DNA from: Thaumasiovibrio occultus
Lineage (GTDB): Bacteria > Pseudomonadota > Gammaproteobacteria > Enterobacterales > Vibrionaceae
Assembly: GCA_019703815.1 (NCBI GenBank)
Contig: AP023053.1
Coordinates: 46,995 to 110,994 of the forward strand
DNA: 64,000 nucleotides
Direction: 5' to 3'
The notes under the pieces were generated by a model. The model was not told the DNA's origin and ran no database searches. It worked only from the letters and a program-made list of their open reading frames with translations. The position numbers and the translations under genes are program-made. Below, one piece after another: positions 31,187 to 44,822 of the stretch; within the stretch, counting starts at the first letter, position 1; each line of letters opens with the position of its first letter.

Positions 31187-31259
31187 CATAAGATAGCTCA
31201 ATAGGTAGAGCGCCAAACGGCAACGTTGGATGTCGCGGGTTCGATTCCCGCTCTTAATG
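31187..31259 (+). ncRNA. tRNA-like element (degenerate tRNA or Y-RNA/YrlA-like RNA)
   Basis: Perfect D-arm GCTC-AATAGGTA-GAGC. Perfect T-arm GCGGG-TTCGATT-CCCGC. 5-nt variable loop ATGTC. Anticodon arm with 4 bp plus mismatch and loop CGGCAAC (G at position 33). Acceptor stem pairs only 5 of 7. No CCA. Confidence 0.5.
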
Positions 31260-35385: not shown

Positions 35386-35991
35386 ATGAAACAAAAAAGC
35401 ATTTTGATCGAATGTGCGGTCATCGTGGCGTTTTTTTGGGGATTGAGTAAGCTGTTACCGGTTGGCCTGTGGTTTGGCGGGATCGTGCTAATGTCTTTAG
35501 TGTTTAGCTGGTGGAGTTGCGGCGCGGTAGGCTTTTTAGCGTGGCGTCGCGAGTTCTCCCCGCTCAAAACCTACCTTTTCCTCGCTGTCGATATGGCGAT
35601 CAGCTCAGTGTTACTGTTGATCGCACTACCACTGTTCAAACTGGCATTGGGCGATCTTGGCTTGTCTGGCAGTTTTTTCCATGTGGCGATCTGCTTGAGC
35701 TGTTTTTGGTTTGGCCACAAAGCGCTACCTTTTACCTTATCTAACCTTGATAAGCTACCCGCCGAAACTCACGCTCGTCTGCATAAGGCTTCAAGTCTCG
35801 TCGGACGTTTGCTTACCTTTTGCATCGTCGCGGCACTGGTGGCGGCAATGGCATTTCTGACTTATCAGCAAGACGGGGTAGTGGCGCGTTATTTGGCGGG
35901 GCTTGTTTGCGTTGCGCTGTTTAGCATTGGTTACTTTTTCCTGCACTATTTTTCCGTTTACCGAGAAGCGATGGGCTATTCGCAGTCATAA
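35386..35991 (+). CDS. hypothetical polytopic inner-membrane protein
   Basis: 201 aa, 5-6 hydrophobic helices. Confidence 0.55.
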   Translation: MKQKSILIECAVIVAFFWGLSKLLPVGLWFGGIVLMSLVFSWWSCGAVGFLAWRREFSPLKTYLFLAVDMAISSVLLLIALPLFKLALGDLGLSGSFFHVAICLSCFWFGHKALPFTLSNLDKLPAETHARLHKASSLVGRLLTFCIVAALVAAMAFLTYQQDGVVARYLAGLVCVALFSIGYFFLHYFSVYREAMGYSQS

Positions 35992-36336
35992 GTGAATTTA
36001 GGGAGGGCATCGACGTTTGCGAGATGCCCAACCAACCCCTCACACCAAAGTGAGACAAGTTTGTTTCGCATCATCAATTATTCCTCGCGGTACTGACAAG
36101 TTCTCCGTACCGAAATACCTTGAGGTTACTCGGTGATATTCCTCTGTCATTCCACTTACCCCACCTTTTTATTTGCCCATCGCTGCAATTAAGCCGTTAT
36201 CTTTCTGAGTGAATAATTCCCTTTTTAGAATATTCATGAAGTCCATTAGCACCATAGGGACTATAAACAATCTTCGTTGTGCGCTATTTCTCGTTAAACG
36301 AATGCGTCGTTTATTTCGTGGTACGGTTTCTATATA

Positions 36337-36726
36337 TTGGCGTTAATCGAACAAGGCCAAGGAGATAAGGTGTCGATTGAACAAATAGAGGTAATTGACG
36401 CCATCGGCATTGATAATTCAACAGGTCATGTTGTGCTATCGATCATTGATTCACTGCCGTGGGATAACGCGCACTTATTGCGATTGCAAGATAAGCTCAA
36501 TACCTATCTTGGCTTTATTGAAAGCGGAGAATTAGAAGTGGCTTATCCCGCCACGAAAGGACGCCAAGTGCAAATACATCTGCATAGTCGATATTGCCCA
36601 GATGAAGACGCCATTAGTTTTCTAGAGCAGATCACTAGGTTAATCAGCAGCGCGGGAGTTGTGTTTACTCATGATGCCGTGTCTGAAACCGGAAAACTGC
36701 CAACTAGTACTGTTGCTACACGTTAG
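36337..36726 (+). CDS. hypothetical protein (AT-rich islet)
   Basis: 129 aa ORF with AAGGAG SD. Low GC relative to flanks. Confidence 0.45.
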   Translation: MALIEQGQGDKVSIEQIEVIDAIGIDNSTGHVVLSIIDSLPWDNAHLLRLQDKLNTYLGFIESGELEVAYPATKGRQVQIHLHSRYCPDEDAISFLEQITRLISSAGVVFTHDAVSETGKLPTSTVATR

Positions 36727-36736
36727 GGGGGCTTTG

Positions 36737-37249
36737 ATGTATCTAGAAGTGCACTCAGCGAGGGACGTTGCATTAGATTCACTGAAATTTAGGTTGTTTA
36801 TTTCTTCATTTGTCGGTTTTACATTGTTCGTGTTCACTTACTATAAATACGCTGTGGGATTAACTGAAGGCGAATTATTCCATATGCGAATTCTTTGGAC
36901 TGTCTGTTCGTTGAGTTTTTTGATTTATATGTTTAACGCTTTTAAATTTCTAACGTCGGCTATAAAGGAAGGCGGCGATTGGATATTTGAAGTTAGTAAC
37001 GGTGTTGTGAAAATTGATGTCCCTTTGCCTGGTCATAATGAAAACCTGAGAATTCCCGTGGAGAATATTTCATGCATGCGTAAGGTTGTGATTGAAATTG
37101 ATAGCACGGATCATAAGTATTGGTATATTGGTTGTGTCGATGGCAAGGACATTGATATTAATTATCAGCAGGTTCCATTCGACTATCGTGCTATTTCTGA
37201 GTATTTACTAGCTAATTATGGTGTTGAGTGTCAAACCGAGAATCGATAG
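36737..37249 (+). CDS. hypothetical membrane-anchored protein (AT-rich islet)
   Basis: Start 11 nt after previous stop. Two N-terminal TM helices then a soluble domain. Confidence 0.45.
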   Translation: MYLEVHSARDVALDSLKFRLFISSFVGFTLFVFTYYKYAVGLTEGELFHMRILWTVCSLSFLIYMFNAFKFLTSAIKEGGDWIFEVSNGVVKIDVPLPGHNENLRIPVENISCMRKVVIEIDSTDHKYWYIGCVDGKDIDINYQQVPFDYRAISEYLLANYGVECQTENR

Positions 37250-37412
37250 TTTTCTGCGCGCTCTACTTCTTGCTATGTTATTTCATTATGTTTATTGAGG
37301 CACTCCAATATTTATTCATGAATGTACTAAAGAAAAGCAGGCTGTGGTGTGACGATTGCCTCTTAAATCAAAAAAGCGTTGGCAGAAAACGCAGTGCTTC
37401 AAGGACGCAATT

Positions 37413-37955
37413 ATGATCCTCGCAATTGATGTGCAATATACAGAGACCGCCGCGTATGTCGCAGGCGTGTTATTTGAATGCTGGGATGCAGACTCGCCGA
37501 TAGGGGAGTTTGTCACCCGCGTAGAAGAGGTTGCACCGTATCAACCGGGGCAATTTTACAAACGCGAATTGCCGTGCATTTTGGCGTTATTAAACGAGCA
37601 TAGTTTGGCACCAATCACCTTTGTGATTGATGGCTACGTCTATTTAGATGGCGCTAGCAAAGCCGGCCTTGGTAAGCATCTATTCGATGCGCTGCAACAA
37701 AAAGCCGCTAAAGCCAATGGTGGTGTTAGTGACCAAGGTAGACCGGTTGAGGTGATTGGTGTGGCAAAAAAAGCGTTCGTTGATATTTCAACCGACTGTG
37801 AGTTATTTCGAGGTACCAGCCAGAAACCTCTGTACGTCACCACCACCGGTGATGTCAGCACGGCCAAATCGGCAATTGCCCTAATGGCTGGTAAACATCG
37901 CATCCCCACGTTATTGAAACGCGCCGATCAATTATGCCGTGAAGCGGCTAAGTAG
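37413..37955 (+). CDS. endonuclease V-family protein (short form)
   Basis: AIDVQY (catalytic Asp), PYQPGQFYKRELP (PY.PG..FRE block), FVIDGYVY (DG), IGVAKK block. All EndoV catalytic positions present. 181 aa. Confidence 0.65.
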   Translation: MILAIDVQYTETAAYVAGVLFECWDADSPIGEFVTRVEEVAPYQPGQFYKRELPCILALLNEHSLAPITFVIDGYVYLDGASKAGLGKHLFDALQQKAAKANGGVSDQGRPVEVIGVAKKAFVDISTDCELFRGTSQKPLYVTTTGDVSTAKSAIALMAGKHRIPTLLKRADQLCREAAK

Positions 37956-38025
37956 TTATCGCATGAGTTCTTTGCAATATTGAGCTCGCTATATGCGGAG
38001 TGCTGCAGTTATTTAAGGAGAGGGA

Positions 38026-38277
38026 ATGAATCAAAAATCGATTGGAACGCCAGTACCAAGAAGTGCTAAAGCTGATTATGAAGATAGGGAAATATTACTG
38101 TTGGCAAAATGTTCTGCTGAGTTACGAGCGACATATCAAATAAAGATGTTGGCTTACTTAGCAAAAACGAGGGGGAAGAAACTCGTTCTTGCATTGACAC
38201 AAGAAACGAAACTTCATAGTTCGTTGTCGTCATTGATAAGCAGTTTTCCAGAGTTAATTGAAATAGAAAGGACCTGA
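38026..38277 (+). CDS. hypothetical small protein
   Basis: 83 aa. GGAGAGGGAATG SD. AT-rich. Confidence 0.4.
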   Translation: MNQKSIGTPVPRSAKADYEDREILLLAKCSAELRATYQIKMLAYLAKTRGKKLVLALTQETKLHSSLSSLISSFPELIEIERT

Positions 38278-38278
38278 G

Positions 38279-38692
38279 ATGAGTGTATATTTATGTATTT
38301 TTGATGGCGACGAAGAGCTCGATGGCATTGATGTTGGACAATATGCCGATTTTGCGTTTTTCCGTGAAGGCGTGGCAGCTGTGGTTGAAAACGGGGTAGT
38401 CGGCTCTGTTTGTCCAACGCTCATGCTGCATTCGGATTGTGATGGTGAATGGACGCCCGCAGAATGTGTGAGACTGATTGAAGAGCTTAATACAATCGAA
38501 AAAGCGTTTCTGTTGTTGCCTCCTGTTGAATACAACTCTGATTGGAAGGCGTCAGTCGCTGAGTCTTGCGGCATCGAACCTGAGTCTTTTTACGATTGTT
38601 TTTTTGATATTGATGGCGAGCCGTTAATTGAACGTATTCGTGATTTGGCGAAGATGAGTGTAGAAACTCTGCAGCCTATCCTGTTCCAGTAA
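38279..38692 (+). CDS. hypothetical acidic protein (immunity-protein-like)
   Basis: 137 aa. Start 1 nt after previous stop. Acidic, Cys-containing. Confidence 0.45.
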   Translation: MSVYLCIFDGDEELDGIDVGQYADFAFFREGVAAVVENGVVGSVCPTLMLHSDCDGEWTPAECVRLIEELNTIEKAFLLLPPVEYNSDWKASVAESCGIEPESFYDCFFDIDGEPLIERIRDLAKMSVETLQPILFQ

Positions 38693-39141
38693 TTGGCACT
38701 GGGGTGGGTCCGAAACTGGAAAACTGGGAGTTACCTAACCGTATTACACTGAATCAGTGTGATGCACCTACCGAGGTAACTCCTGCCTTGCAGTAAAATT
38801 CGTGTGTTTGTCTTCCTGCTTTGTGCTGGGTTCTCTCCTTACAACGTCGGGCCTATTTTCCTTTCCCGCAATCTCGCAGAAATTTGCCTTCTTCTTGCTG
38901 TATTGATAAATATTTTGCGAAACAGATCTAAATGCCGTTTTTGAGCTTCGTCTGTTGGTGAACAAGCTCATTACTCTAATGCCCTAGTAAATTAGCGAAT
39001 TCTCAATAGTTCTAATTGTGATCTGGTTCTGCCTGCTTATCTTAGTGACAGTGTCACTTGGTGGGTGGTTTTACACGATGAGAATCGCCACATCTTCCGA
39101 GTCGGGGATGGAAAAATATAACAATAAAGGAGTCATTGGCT

Positions 39142-39714
39142 ATGAAATATCAATCGTTGTTGGCTTTAGCGATACTAGGTGGGGTGGCACAGGCGCAAGA
39201 TCTGATCTTAACGCCGACCAGTTTGGGCGAGCTCACCTTGTCTTCATCGACCCAAGTCTCGCAAACTGGGCTTACCGAGCTATTTCCAGACTATCAAATC
39301 ACCCATGAAATAGGACAAGGCGACTCGCCAGATTTTCATCTGCTGAAGGTCAGTGATGGCGACGAGATGTTGTTCTATATCCTTTCCTACATCGAAGACG
39401 ACGTCACCCATCAGAGCGAAAGCTATGATATTGATTTATTGGTGGTGACCAGTGACAACATTGCCGATGGTTACGGCGTTCGGGTCGGCGATCGGGCAGA
39501 AAAATTGTTTCAGAGCCTGCCGGGCAATATCGATGTGTACGCTAACCACTATGATAATGCGCTCGGCCATGAAGGCTTGTTTTATCAGTTCTATATCGAG
39601 CCGAACGACGAAGGTAACGACGGCGCAAACCCGTTAGATGTCGATATTGAAACTATCTTAGAACATAATCCAGAGATCTCAGAGTTGTCGTGGCCGACGC
39701 CGCGTTGGGGTTAG
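39142..39714 (+). CDS. secreted hypothetical protein
   Basis: AAAGGAG SD. MKYQSLLALAILGGVAQAQ signal peptide. Acidic. Confidence 0.55.
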   Translation: MKYQSLLALAILGGVAQAQDLILTPTSLGELTLSSSTQVSQTGLTELFPDYQITHEIGQGDSPDFHLLKVSDGDEMLFYILSYIEDDVTHQSESYDIDLLVVTSDNIADGYGVRVGDRAEKLFQSLPGNIDVYANHYDNALGHEGLFYQFYIEPNDEGNDGANPLDVDIETILEHNPEISELSWPTPRWG

Positions 39715-42675: not shown

Positions 42676-42756
42676 TGCTTTCTTCTTTCTTCTTTCTTCT
42701 TTCTTCTTTCTCGTTTTCTCGTTTTCTCGTTTTCTCGTTTTCTCGTTTTCTCGCTT
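42676..42756. repeat. compound tandem repeat (TTTCTTC)x5 followed by (TCGTTTTC)x5
   Basis: Seen directly in the divergent intergenic region between the RidA-like and xseA-like genes. Confidence 0.95.
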
Positions 42757-42997: not shown

Positions 42998-44620
42998 ATG
43001 CAAGATTTAGCCTCAAAAACCAGTGATTTACATGATAGCGGCACCATGACGCTCACTGAGTTGCTGACCGAAGTCGGCCAAGTGCTGCGGCGGGAAATGC
43101 AAAGCCGCTATTGGTTTACTGCCGAATTGACCAGCGTTAAACGTCATACCTCCGGCCATACTTACCTCGAACTCTCACACACGAACGACGGTGGGCAAAC
43201 CGCGAAAACCCAAGCCAACTTATGGGCGCAGAACGCGCAGATCATTCGCGATTTTGAACAACAAACCGGAATTCGTTTTGATAAGAACCTCGAAGTCATG
43301 CTGCTCGGCGAGGTGACGTTCAGTCCGCAGTATGGTTTCAAGCTCAATATTGTCGGGATCAACGCCAGCTTTAGTGTCGGGGCGTTTGAGCTTAAATTGC
43401 GAGAGATCCGCAAGCGCCTGCAAGATCTCGGCGAGTCAGAGCGCAACAAACAATTGCCCGTCCCGCTTGATTTTACCCGCGTGGCGGTGATTGCCCCAGC
43501 CAAGGCGGCTGGGTTAAGTGATTTCAAAACCAAAGCCGAGCGCTTACAGCAACACGGCTTGTGCCAATTCGACTATTTTGAAGCTACGTTCCAAGGGCCG
43601 CGTCGCGAAGATTCTATTGTGATGGCCTTTAGTGAAGTGGTGCAAAACGCCCACACGTATGACGCGGTCTGTTTTATTCGCGGCGGTGGTGACAGGGCGG
43701 GGCTAAATGAACTGGCCGAAGCAAAATTGGCGCGGGCGGTGTGTCGTTGTCCGTATCCGGTGTTCACGGGGATCGGCCATCAAACCGATCACAACTTGCT
43801 TGATGAATACGCCCACGCCTCGTTCAGTACCCCGTCGATGGTGGTTTCTTACATTAACGATACCATTGTGAATAACGCGAAAGCGGCAAAGGAAAACTTT
43901 GTCGCTATCCAGCATGTGGCGCGTCAAACCTGCAATTATGCCAAGCAAGATGTGGCGCACAAATGGAGCGGGATCTGTGAAGATAAAGCGATCATCCTGT
44001 CGACGTGGCGGCACAATGTATCAACGCTCACTGAGCGAGTGTTTACCAGCTCTAAACAAGCCGTGGCGGATAGCCGTTTTCAGGTGGCGCAACACTATAA
44101 CGTGATGATGGGGAGTACCCGTTACACGATCAGCCAGCAAAAAGAGGCAGTAAAAACGCTGCACGACGAGAATCGTCACCACAGCACGCGCCATGTGACT
44201 GCGGCGCGGCAGGCCAATCGTGATTTGGCCAATCTGATGTATACCTCGGCTAGCAAGCAGATCACCAAAAACCAATTCGAGCTGGAATACCGCTTCAAGC
44301 ACGTGCAGCAGCAGGCGAAAGCCCAATCTCATGCTGCCAAACAAGAGCTGGCACACGGCATGAAGTTGGCGCTCAATGGCGCGCAACGCTCGCTGAGTGC
44401 TCAGCGCGAGAGTGTCACCAACACCTTTAAATTGATTGATGCGGTCAACCCGCAGAACGTGTTAGCGCGCGGTTTTGCCCTGATCACAACGCCCAATGGC
44501 GAAGTAGTGAAGGGCGTTTCGCAGCTCAACCCGAATGAAACCGTAACGGTGCAGCTGAAAGATGGCAGCTTCACCGCAACCCCGAACAATATTGACGTTA
44601 AAGGAAATTCCAATGAGTAA
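42998..44620 (+). CDS. xseA: exodeoxyribonuclease VII large subunit-like protein (XseA paralogue with extended coiled-coil C-terminus)
   Basis: N-terminal OB-fold region (WFTAELTSVKRHTSGHTYLELSH). Catalytic core IRGGGDRAGLNELAEAKLARAV...PVFTGIGHQTDHNLLDEYAHASFSTPS. Start uncertain (42962/42998/43046). Confidence 0.7.
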   Translation: MQDLASKTSDLHDSGTMTLTELLTEVGQVLRREMQSRYWFTAELTSVKRHTSGHTYLELSHTNDGGQTAKTQANLWAQNAQIIRDFEQQTGIRFDKNLEVMLLGEVTFSPQYGFKLNIVGINASFSVGAFELKLREIRKRLQDLGESERNKQLPVPLDFTRVAVIAPAKAAGLSDFKTKAERLQQHGLCQFDYFEATFQGPRREDSIVMAFSEVVQNAHTYDAVCFIRGGGDRAGLNELAEAKLARAVCRCPYPVFTGIGHQTDHNLLDEYAHASFSTPSMVVSYINDTIVNNAKAAKENFVAIQHVARQTCNYAKQDVAHKWSGICEDKAIILSTWRHNVSTLTERVFTSSKQAVADSRFQVAQHYNVMMGSTRYTISQQKEAVKTLHDENRHHSTRHVTAARQANRDLANLMYTSASKQITKNQFELEYRFKHVQQQAKAQSHAAKQELAHGMKLALNGAQRSLSAQRESVTNTFKLIDAVNPQNVLARGFALITTPNGEVVKGVSQLNPNETVTVQLKDGSFTATPNNIDVKGNSNE

Positions 44621-44822
44621 CGAAACTAGCACCTACATGGAAAACTACAATAAGCTGCAGCAAGCCGCGAACGAGTTATCCCAACAAAGTGTGCCTGATG
44701 TCGATAAGATCATTCCTCTGGTAAAGCAAGGCAGCGAAGCGTATACCCATTGCATGAGCCGGATTGCCGAAGTGGAGCGCATGCTCGAAGAGATCGAAAA
44801 GAAAACCAACTCTGCCAACTAG
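44613..44822 (+). CDS. xseB: exodeoxyribonuclease VII small subunit-like protein
   Basis: 69 aa helical protein with XseB-like pattern (YMENYNKLQQAANELSQQSVPDVDKIIPLVKQGSEAYTHCMSRIAEVERMLEEIE). ATG overlaps the xseA-like stop (ATGAGTAA). AAAGGAAA SD. Confidence 0.6.
   Translation: MSNETSTYMENYNKLQQAANELSQQSVPDVDKIIPLVKQGSEAYTHCMSRIAEVERMLEEIEKKTNSAN

What the first reader, a model, noticed from the sequence alone, without database searches (positions are those of the whole stretch)
42998..44822. Translationally coupled xseA-like/xseB-like pair: a second exonuclease VII-type system
The large-subunit homologue has the OB-fold and the catalytic core but a C-terminal coiled-coil region of about 100 aa longer than XseA. 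Its stop overlaps the start of an XseB-like small subunit (ATGAGTAA). In gammaproteobacteria housekeeping xseA and xseB are unlinked, so a fused operon copy is most likely an accessory paralogue with a specialised role (for example processing of ssDNA intermediates or defence).
Basis: partly seen in the sequence, partly recalled or inferred. Interest (0 to 1): 0.6.

Follow-up and report, generated by a model that had tools for sequence, protein, structure and literature searches.

The report
Acquired long-stalk exonuclease VII gene pair
This is a real, intact, two-gene exonuclease VII (XseA/XseB) operon in Thaumasiovibrio occultus. Its close relatives are carried by plasmids and integrative elements, so it is an ordinary though little-studied acquired DNA-repair nuclease, not a new kind of system.

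Summary
Window 42998-44620 (+) encodes a 540-aa XseA and 44613-44822 (+) a 69-aa XseB, overlapping in ATGAGTAA.

- **Large protein:** it passes TIGR00237 and keeps all catalytic residues mapped in E. coli. Its model has the OB, catalytic, long-helix and C-terminal beta layout of E. coli ExoVII (PDB 8TXR).
- **Small protein:** it misses the classical XseB cut-offs but clearly passes NCBIfam NF045605, the Acinetobacter-variant XseB.
- **Stalk:** it is 64-66 aa longer than in E. coli, not about 100. That is three 22-aa XseB-binding units, so about 9 XseB per XseA instead of 6. This kind of variation is already published.
- **Organism and relatives:** the organism is Thaumasiovibrio occultus. The closest relatives sit on a Photobacterium japonica plasmid-like contig and in rare ICE- or island-like elements of Vibrio. 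More distant copies are on IncP-7, Acinetobacter and other plasmids.
- **Sister species:** T. subtropicus lacks the pair, including at the conserved murQPR site.
- **Selection and context:** the pair is under purifying selection (dN/dS about 0.05). No defence-system signal was found.

"Acquired accessory paralogue" is therefore well supported, but indirectly. I could not search the T. occultus genome for the canonical xseA and xseB. Linked xseA-xseB is also the likely housekeeping arrangement in Acinetobacter and Sulfurivirga. Both genes are already annotated as ExoVII subunits.

The parts
42998..44620 (+). xseA-like gene: exonuclease VII large subunit, 540 aa
   Evidence: ORF. TIGR00237 226 bits, PF02601 and PF13742. 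100% identical to the protein annotated 'exodeoxyribonuclease VII large subunit' of Thaumasiovibrio occultus. phmmer to PDB 8TXR chain A E=2e-20. Foldseek of the AF2 model to 8TXR E=8e-26.
43049..43363 (+). N-terminal OB-fold domain (aa 18-122)
   Evidence: PF13742 matches aa 18-119. Beta strands 37-122 in the AF2 model.
43376..43825 (+). Catalytic alpha/beta domain (aa 127-276) with D175, R228-G-G-G, H261, D264 and D269
   Evidence: These residues align with E. coli D155, R205, H238, D241 and D246 and are invariant in 72-76 homologues. The E. coli residues were shown to be essential in PMC3439923.
43832..44443 (+). Extended helical stalk (aa 279-482), predicted to carry about 9 XseB-binding units of 22 aa
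   Evidence: AF2 helices 279-372 and 384-482. Anchor-to-anchor length is 205 aa against 141 in E. coli, and homologues differ in 22-aa steps. Hydropathy autocorrelation at lags 22 and 44 exceeds shuffles, p about 0.001 or less. Quantised stalks are described in PMC10835039.
44450..44578 (+). C-terminal beta domain (aa 485-527), the dimerisation element in E. coli XseA
   Evidence: Aligns to E. coli XseA residues 334-446. Strands 495-527 in the model. P485, L489, G492, D522 and G523 are conserved.
44613..44822 (+). xseB-like gene: variant exonuclease VII small subunit, 69 aa
   Evidence: NF045605 61.2 bits (cut-off 40), PF02609 23.9 bits, TIGR01280 28.4 bits. AF2 model is a helical hairpin, H3-23 and H30-68. 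33% identical to the small ORF that follows xseA on an A. baumannii plasmid, E=8e-11. 62-70% identical to the small ORFs that follow the Vibrio homologues.
44601..44620 (+). Coupling junction: AAGGA ribosome-binding site inside the end of xseA, then ATGAGTAA (xseB start overlapping the xseA stop)
   Evidence: Read directly from the sequence. The same ATGAGTAA junction is present in Photobacterium japonica.
42677..42754 (.). Compound simple-sequence repeat, (CTTTCTT)n followed by (TTTCTCGT)x6, in the intergenic region upstream of xseA; relation to expression unknown

Best explanation
The two genes encode a functional exonuclease VII of a divergent subfamily in which xseA and xseB are linked. 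XseA has an OB fold, a catalytic domain, a long helix and a C-terminal beta domain. Its stalk is decorated by a variant XseB, predicted at about 9 copies per XseA instead of 6. By homology the complex degrades single-stranded DNA ends and processes DNA-protein adducts.

Thaumasiovibrio occultus acquired the pair horizontally as a two-gene unit, most likely from a plasmid or integrative element. It now sits in a variable region next to murQPR, probably on the small chromosome, as an accessory copy beside the canonical unlinked xseA and xseB.

Shown here: gene structure, family membership, conserved catalytic residues, stalk length, purifying selection, the mobile-element context of relatives, and absence from the sister species.

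Inferred: enzymatic activity, the 1:9 stoichiometry, the presence of the canonical genes elsewhere in the genome, and the biological role.
For: - Family HMMs and structure.
- Catalytic residues D175, R228, H261, D264 and D269 are invariant, against the E. coli mutagenesis in PMC3439923.
- Stalk lengths of 95, 139-141, 205, 227, 249 and 271 aa fall in 22-aa steps, with 22-residue hydropathy periodicity.
- dN/dS is about 0.05 against the P. japonica copy (dS is saturated, so this is approximate), and the ATGAGTAA junction is conserved.
- DNA similarity to P. japonica is confined to 43046-44807, that is, just the two genes.
- Relatives lie next to StbA/MobI/ParA/Rep3; in a conserved Vibrio backbone with umuDC, AbiEi and a relaxase, flanked by variable type I RM or GmrSD cargo; or beside integrases.
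- 93 plasmid records carry XseA homologues, including IncP-7 pDK1 with StbA-mobI-...-xseB-xseA.
- In the XseA tree this clade groups with plasmid-borne and other linked copies, far from E. coli XseA at 21% identity.
- T. subtropicus has murQPR but no xseAB.
- The Vibrio clusters are each seen on only 1-6 contigs.
Against: - The canonical xseA/xseB of T. occultus were not seen, because the genome is not in any searchable collection.
- No mobile-element gene lies within about 10 kb of the pair in T. occultus.
- Its GC (0.53) and GC3 (0.62) match its neighbours, so any acquisition is not recent or came from a donor of similar composition.
- The small subunit falls below the classical Pfam and TIGR cut-offs. 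It shows no BLASTP similarity to E. coli XseB, and hhalign gives only 16% probability.
Confidence: 0.75

Rival explanations
1. The pair is the only exonuclease VII of T. occultus. A horizontally acquired linked pair displaced the canonical unlinked xseA and xseB.
For: Linked pairs of this subfamily look like the resident housekeeping enzyme in Sulfurivirga (next to relA, gltX, dus, rpoN) and in Acinetobacter (next to proC, cspE, tRNA-Met). The pair is compositionally native, strongly constrained, and not inside a recognisable mobile element.
Against: Canonical xseA and xseB are separate, functional genes in Vibrio cholerae (PMC12004951). The Vibrio homologues of this pair are rare, strain-specific extras seen on 1-6 contigs each. 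The sister species lacks the pair altogether, so the genus does not depend on it.
Confidence: 0.08
2. The pair is a specialised mobile-element function and not general repair. It could process conjugative ssDNA or 5'-phosphotyrosyl relaxase-DNA intermediates. It could help an incoming element survive host nucleases, as the ssb-bet-exo 'hde' operon of IncC and SXT elements does. Or it could exclude competing ssDNA invaders. On this reading the T. occultus copy is a stranded remnant of such a module.
For: In the Vibrio ICE-like elements the pair is part of a conserved backbone, while the neighbouring defence cargo varies. In IncP-7 plasmids and the P. japonica contig it lies 2-5 kb from mobI/stbA. 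The paper on the E. coli enzyme structure (PMC10835039, citing earlier work) reports that ExoVII prefers 5'-phosphotyrosyl-linked ssDNA overhangs. Mobile-element recombination and nuclease operons that rescue incoming DNA have a precedent (PMC7498323).
Against: PADLOC gives no hit. No literature on mobile-element ExoVII was found. The conserved Vibrio neighbours give no informative family. In T. occultus the pair has no transfer genes nearby. The position relative to oriT and the leading strand was not determined.
Confidence: 0.13
3. The pair is a decaying, non-functional leftover of a lost mobile element.
For: It is isolated from any element backbone in T. occultus. No promoter-like or terminator-like signal exceeds chance.
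Against: Both ORFs are intact, the catalytic residues are kept, dN/dS is about 0.05, the coupling junction and ribosome-binding site are conserved, and the protein model is confident, with mean pLDDT 82.7.
Confidence: 0.04

Closest known systems
Escherichia coli exonuclease VII (XseA4·XseB24; PDB 8TXR)
   Same: Same four-part XseA architecture (OB fold, catalytic domain, helical stalk, C-terminal beta domain). Same RGGG...GHxxDxxxxD motif plus the D155 equivalent. The small subunit is a helical hairpin.
   Different: Only 21% identical overall. The stalk is three 22-aa units longer, so about 9 predicted XseB sites against 6. The genes overlap instead of lying at guaB and ispA-dxs. The small subunit has no detectable pairwise similarity to E. 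coli XseB.
Acinetobacter-type ExoVII (xseA followed by an overlapping variant xseB, NCBIfam NF045605 'xseB_Acin_var'), chromosomal and plasmid-borne
   Same: The small subunit passes NF045605 at 61 bits and is 33% identical to the Acinetobacter plasmid XseB. The large subunit is 32% identical over its full length and about 40% over the N-terminal 290 aa. Same overlapping xseA-then-xseB order.
   Different: The Acinetobacter stalk is short: 95 aa between anchors, about 4 units, in a 420-422 aa protein. The T. occultus stalk is 205 aa, about 9 units.
Vibrio ICE/island-borne 574-584 aa XseA with a 69-70 aa XseB, and the Photobacterium japonica plasmid-like copy
   Same: This is the same clade. 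Large subunits are 38-42% (Vibrio) and 67% (P. japonica) identical. Small subunits are 62-70% (Vibrio) and 84-86% (P. japonica) identical. The two genes overlap in the same order in all of them, and the ATGAGTAA junction itself is shared with P. japonica.
   Different: Those copies sit in recognisable mobile elements, and most have 11 stalk units. The T. occultus copy has 9 units and no element genes around it.
IncP-7 and related MobI(A/C)-type plasmid ExoVII (pDK1, P. aeruginosa pPae-WC20-001-02)
   Same: Plasmid-borne linked pair of the same broad subfamily, about 40% identical over the N-terminal half. It lies close to stbA-mobI, as in P. japonica.
   Different: The gene order is reversed (xseB then xseA), and the stalk has 6 units.

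Membership tests
Exonuclease VII large subunit (XseA; TIGR00237 / PF02601 + PF13742) | Whole-protein HMM score above the curated cut-off | tested here: met
   TIGR00237 226.1 bits against 180; PF02601 172 bits against 35.9; PF13742 48 bits against 27.
Exonuclease VII large subunit (XseA; TIGR00237 / PF02601 + PF13742) | Catalytic motif RGGG(x)nGHxxDxxxxD plus the D155 equivalent | tested here: met
   D175, R228-GGG, H261, D264 and D269 align with E. coli D155, R205, H238, D241 and D246, and are invariant across 72-76 homologues (residues from PMC3439923).
Exonuclease VII large subunit (XseA; TIGR00237 / PF02601 + PF13742) | Four-domain architecture: OB fold, alpha/beta catalytic domain, extended helix, C-terminal beta domain | tested here: met
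   AF2 model with pLDDT 82.7 shows these elements in order. The best PDB match is 8TXR at E=8e-26.
Exonuclease VII large subunit (XseA; TIGR00237 / PF02601 + PF13742) | Helical stalk built of about 22-aa XseB-binding units that vary in whole units | tested here: met
   Anchor-to-anchor lengths fall at 95, 139-141, 205, 227, 249 and 271 aa. Lag-22 and lag-44 hydropathy periodicity exceeds shuffles. The concept comes from PMC10835039.
Exonuclease VII large subunit (XseA; TIGR00237 / PF02601 + PF13742) | Mg-independent, bidirectional ssDNA exonuclease activity | not testable with these tools
   Needs biochemistry.
Exonuclease VII small subunit (XseB) | Score above the cut-off of the classical models (PF02609, TIGR01280) | tested here: not met
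   PF02609 23.9 bits against 24.0 (E=4e-5). TIGR01280 28.4 bits against 35. No BLASTP alignment to E. coli XseB. hhalign probability 16%, though the alignment is in register.
Exonuclease VII small subunit (XseB) | Score above the cut-off of the variant model NF045605 (xseB_Acin_var) | tested here: met
   61.2 bits against 40, E=8e-17.
Exonuclease VII small subunit (XseB) | Alpha-helical hairpin of about 70-80 aa, encoded beside or coupled to xseA | tested here: met
   AF2 model with helices H3-23 and H30-68, pLDDT 84.8. ATGAGTAA overlap with xseA. A small ORF in the same position follows the xseA-like gene at every locus of this clade examined, and in the more distant Sulfurivirga and Tundrisphaera loci.
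Exonuclease VII small subunit (XseB) | Binds the XseA stalk in multiple copies | not testable with these tools
   Predicted at about 9 per XseA from the stalk length. Needs co-purification or mass photometry.
Housekeeping E. coli/Vibrio-type ExoVII | xseA next to guaB, xseB in an xseB-ispA-dxs operon, and high similarity to E. coli XseA/XseB | tested here: not met
   The neighbours are a RidA-like gene and murQ-murP-murR. Identity to E. coli XseA is 21%. The E. coli arrangement is shown.
Known anti-phage defence systems (PADLOC-DB v2) | Match of either protein, or of the neighbours, to a defence-system model | tested here: not met
   No hit for either protein. Among ten neighbours, only the RidA-like protein matches, to the C-terminal part of PD-T4-2_B.
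Mobile-element cargo or backbone gene | Integrase, relaxase, replication or partition genes in the flanks | tested here: inconclusive
   Met for all close relatives. Not met within about 10 kb in T. occultus. The site is nevertheless variable between the two Thaumasiovibrio species.

The most novel reading that the evidence does not exclude
Long-stalk, linked XseA/XseB pairs may be a conserved backbone function of a set of conjugative and integrative elements: the Vibrio ICE-like islands, MobI/StbA-type plasmids including IncP-7, and Acinetobacter plasmids. On this reading they act on the element's own transfer intermediates. One option is removal of 5'-phosphotyrosyl relaxase adducts or trimming of ssDNA ends during establishment. 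Another is attack on competing ssDNA invaders. Stalk length (4 to 12 XseB units) would then tune substrate access. The T. occultus pair would be a domesticated copy of such a module.
Probability: 0.12. Interest if true: 0.65.

Novelty: new member of a known kind. Interest (0 to 1): 0.3.

Why it matters
For this genome the pair is a correctly annotatable extra DNA-repair nuclease and little more.

The wider pattern may deserve attention. ExoVII pairs with stalks of 4 to 12 XseB units recur on plasmids and integrative elements. I found 93 plasmid records with XseA homologues and a conserved backbone position in Vibrio elements, and no paper that discusses this.

ExoVII handles ssDNA ends and tyrosyl-DNA adducts and affects quinolone tolerance. 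Mobile copies could therefore influence conjugation, recombineering efficiency or drug tolerance. The natural series of stalk lengths is also a ready-made test of why the enzyme needs a rigid stalk, which the E. coli structure paper left open.

Tried and rejected
- **Canonical genes in the same genome.** The look-up of encoding contigs found no record of the exact protein. The genome is therefore not searchable here. The window itself holds no other xseA/xseB (tblastn).
- **Defence role.** PADLOC on the pair and on ten neighbours gave nothing relevant.
- **Direct similarity of the small protein to solved XseB.** phmmer against PDB returned only coiled-coil noise. BLASTP to E. coli XseB gave nothing. 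hhalign was weak. Foldseek of the hairpin model returned nothing.
- **Function of the conserved Vibrio backbone neighbours.** NCBIfam and PHROGs gave only an ATPase/kinase-like protein and a NYN-domain protein.
- **Literature.** Six searches for plasmid-, ICE- or leading-region-associated ExoVII found nothing specific.
- **Signs of an insertion.** There are no convincing flanking direct repeats, no compositional anomaly, and no promoter or terminator signals above chance.
- **Rejected readings.** A pseudogene or remnant is rejected because the ORFs are intact and dN/dS is about 0.05. A chance small ORF is rejected because an overlapping small ORF follows xseA in every homologous locus examined.
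Full report
**1. What is in the sequence.**
Window 42998-44620 (+) is an intact 540-codon ORF. Window 44613-44822 (+) is a 69-codon ORF. The two share ATGAGTAA at 44613-44620, which holds the start of the small gene and the stop of the large one. An AAGGA ribosome-binding site lies 7 nt upstream, inside the end of the large gene. The 540-aa start matches the database protein, which is 100% identical and named exodeoxyribonuclease VII large subunit of Thaumasiovibrio occultus. The small protein is likewise 100% identical to that species' annotated small subunit. So the organism is T. occultus (Vibrionaceae), and both genes already carry these names in public annotation.

**2. Family membership.**
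The large protein matches Pfam Exonuc_VII_L (E=2e-50) and the OB-fold model tRNA_anti_2 (E=1e-12). It scores 226 bits on TIGR00237 xseA against a cut-off of 180.

It aligns to E. coli XseA (PDB 8TXR) in two blocks: residues 18-286 with 11-263, and 419-533 with 334-446. The residues shown by mutagenesis to be needed for E. coli activity are D155, R205, H238 and D241 (PMC3439923). Here they are D175, R228, H261 and D264. They are invariant in alignments of 15, 72 and 76 homologues, as is D269, the equivalent of D246.

An AlphaFold2 model (mean pLDDT 82.7) shows these elements in order: OB strands 37-122, an alpha/beta domain 127-276, helices 279-372 and 384-482, and C-terminal strands 495-527. 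Its best PDB match is E. coli ExoVII at E=8e-26.

The small protein is just under the Pfam Exonuc_VII_S cut-off (23.9 against 24.0 bits, E=4e-5) and below TIGR01280 (28.4 against 35). It clearly passes NCBIfam NF045605 'xseB_Acin_var' (61.2 against 40 bits). It is modelled as a helical hairpin. It is 33% identical to the small ORF that overlaps the end of xseA on an A. baumannii plasmid. Pairwise it shows nothing against E. coli XseB. The signal comes from the variant model.

**3. The longer stalk.**
I measured the distance between two conserved anchors, the TP(S) motif after the catalytic domain and the P of the C-terminal domain. The values are:

| Protein | Anchor-to-anchor length (aa) |
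|---|---|
| Acinetobacter plasmid XseA and V. parahaemolyticus megaplasmid XseA | 95 |
| E. coli, P. aeruginosa plasmid, Sulfurivirga, Thiomicrospira | 139-141 |
| T. occultus, P. japonica, Photobacterium ZSDE20 | 205 |
| V. tapetis | 227 |
| Vibrio 574-584 aa proteins | 249 |
| One metagenomic homologue | 271 |

These are steps of 22 aa. The T. occultus stalk also shows hydropathy periodicity at lags 22 and 44; 0.05% and 0.1% of shuffles reach the observed values.

The E. coli cryo-EM paper reports six XseB per XseA on residues 267-395. It also reports that XseA tails across about 340 species vary in quantised steps of one XseB site (PMC10835039). The T. occultus stalk is therefore 64-66 aa longer, which is three units and about 9 predicted XseB sites, not about 100 aa. 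This is a published kind of variation.

**4. Who else has it, and where.**
- **Closest relative.** It is from Photobacterium japonica (large subunit 67%, small subunit 84-86%). It lies on a 48-kb contig with Rep3, ParA, KfrA, a resolvase, MobI and StbA, so the contig is plasmid-like. DNA similarity between the two species covers only 43046-44807, that is, the two genes and nothing in the flanks.
- **Vibrio homologues.** Next come 574-584 aa proteins at 38-42% identity in single strains of V. parahaemolyticus, V. crassostreae, V. vulnificus, V. harveyi, V. natriegens and others. Each cluster was seen on only 1-6 contigs. In the five such loci examined, a 69-70 aa XseB-like ORF follows. The pair sits in a conserved block: xseA, xseB, a 133-aa ORF, a 212-aa ORF, an AAA_33 protein, a NYN/OST-HTH protein, then umuDC, AbiEi and a relaxase. 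This block is bordered by variable type I restriction or GmrSD cargo.
- **Other Vibrionaceae.** In Photobacterium ZSDE20 the neighbours are H-NS, ProQ and an integrase. In V. tapetis the pair lies in an island after the his operon, beside an integrase-like gene and IS21.
- **Plasmids.** A tblastn of the plasmid collection finds XseA homologues on 93 records: 39 Acinetobacter, 23 Pseudomonas, and also Variovorax, Aeromonas and Burkholderia. They include IncP-7 pDK1 and a P. aeruginosa plasmid, where the order is stbA, mobI, about 4 kb of small genes, then xseB-xseA.
- **Species representatives.** In the collection of 185,579 genomes, one per bacterial or archaeal species, the clade-specific peptide patterns recovered only about 9 Vibrionaceae species.
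- **Tree.** In a neighbour-joining tree T. occultus and P. japonica nest within the Vibrio element clade. The whole linked subfamily is separated from E. coli XseA by a very long branch.

**5. The T. occultus locus itself.**
Upstream lie rtcB-rtcA, several unknown ORFs (one of 39% GC), an MBL-fold protein, cpYpsA, DUF7079, DUF6150 and a RidA-like gene. Downstream lie murQ, murP and murR. There is no integrase, relaxase, replication gene or tRNA next to the pair. There are no convincing flanking repeats, and GC and GC3 equal those of the neighbours. PADLOC finds no defence system in the pair or around it.

The sister species T. subtropicus has murQ-murP-murR on its 1.9-Mb replicon. Upstream it carries a resolvase, an ankyrin protein and a PAAR/pyocin-type toxin, and no xseAB. 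DNA similarity with the window starts only inside murQ. No T. subtropicus protein appears among the relatives of the large subunit, although that genome is in the database. So the pair sits at the edge of a variable region and is not conserved within the genus. By inference the window comes from the small chromosome.

Against the P. japonica copy, dN/dS is about 0.05 (dS is saturated, so the ratio is approximate). The ATGAGTAA junction is conserved. The genes are therefore maintained by selection.

**6. Interpretation.**
The best reading is an active ExoVII of the linked subfamily, acquired as a two-gene unit from a plasmid or ICE and kept as an accessory nuclease. I put this at about 0.75.

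Unlinked xseA and xseB is the E. coli arrangement and, from the literature, the V. cholerae one, where xseA and xseB were mutated separately (PMC12004951). Overlapping pairs of this very subfamily lie in chromosomal, housekeeping-looking contexts in Sulfurivirga and Acinetobacter. Linkage alone therefore does not show accessory status. The mobile-element context, the sporadic distribution and the absence from the sister species do.

The decisive check, canonical genes elsewhere in T. occultus, could not be run. This leaves a small chance, about 0.08, that the pair replaced the canonical genes.

A specialised mobile-element role is possible but untested, at about 0.13. Candidates are processing of relaxase-DNA adducts or rescue of incoming DNA, by analogy with the ssb-bet-exo hde operon (PMC7498323) and with the reported preference of ExoVII for 5'-phosphotyrosyl ssDNA overhangs (PMC10835039). 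I found no paper on mobile-element ExoVII.

**7. Verdict.**
This is a new member of a known kind, already named correctly in public annotation, and of low to moderate interest. The recurring presence of variable-stalk ExoVII pairs on plasmids and integrative elements is the only aspect that might repay experiments.

Noticed in passing
window 31189-31256 (+): A tRNA-like element scores 44.7 bits on Rfam RF00005, matching model positions 3-68 only. ARAGORN does not call it as a tRNA. It lies about 160 nt upstream of an SPFH/Band-7 gene followed by rtcB and rtcA. It could be a tRNA-like module of a Y-RNA-like or other non-coding RNA linked to the RNA-repair operon.
   Followed up: partly
window 42677-42754: A compound simple-sequence repeat, about five copies of CTTTCTT running into six copies of TTTCTCGT. 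It lies in the 410-bp intergenic region between the divergent RidA-like gene and the xseA-like gene. Copy-number change could affect expression of either gene.
   Followed up: no
window 35386-39714: A run of ORFs with no family match, except one weak Endonuclease V-like N-terminal match at 37356-37955. It includes a low-GC ORF (36659-37249, GC 0.39 against a window mean of 0.50). It sits between rtcA and the MBL-fold gene and looks like foreign DNA.
   Followed up: partly
L002, L003, L004-L006, L036 (Vibrio loci): A conserved ICE/island backbone block (xseA, xseB, a 133-aa ORF, a 212-aa ORF, an AAA_33/polynucleotide-kinase-like protein, a 98-aa ORF, a NYN/OST-HTH protein, then umuDC, AbiEi and a relaxase). 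Different defence cargo is inserted next to it in different strains: type I RM with an inserted AAA ATPase in one, GmrSD in another. Most backbone genes have no known family.
   Followed up: partly
L008 (V. parahaemolyticus 882-kb plasmid), L038 (Sulfurivirga), L039 (Tundrisphaera): Some XseA homologues carry an extra N-terminal DUF5710 domain (PF18974). In the V. parahaemolyticus megaplasmid copy the same N-terminal extension is seen by alignment only and was not scanned against Pfam. That copy lies near ssb and a dihydrofolate reductase gene.
   Followed up: no
L040 (record CAKLQF020000006.1, labelled 'Acinetobacter phage MD-2021a'): This 207-kb 'phage' record carries proC, cspE, tRNA-Met, leuE, cueR and a P-type ATPase around xseA. 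It looks like bacterial chromosome and not phage.
   Followed up: no
L044 7249-9899 (T. subtropicus, upstream of murQ): At the position where T. occultus has the xseAB pair, T. subtropicus carries a PAAR/Pyocin_S/GH-E toxin, an ankyrin-repeat putative immunity protein and a resolvase. The region upstream of murQPR is therefore a swap site for accessory genes in this genus.
   Followed up: partly
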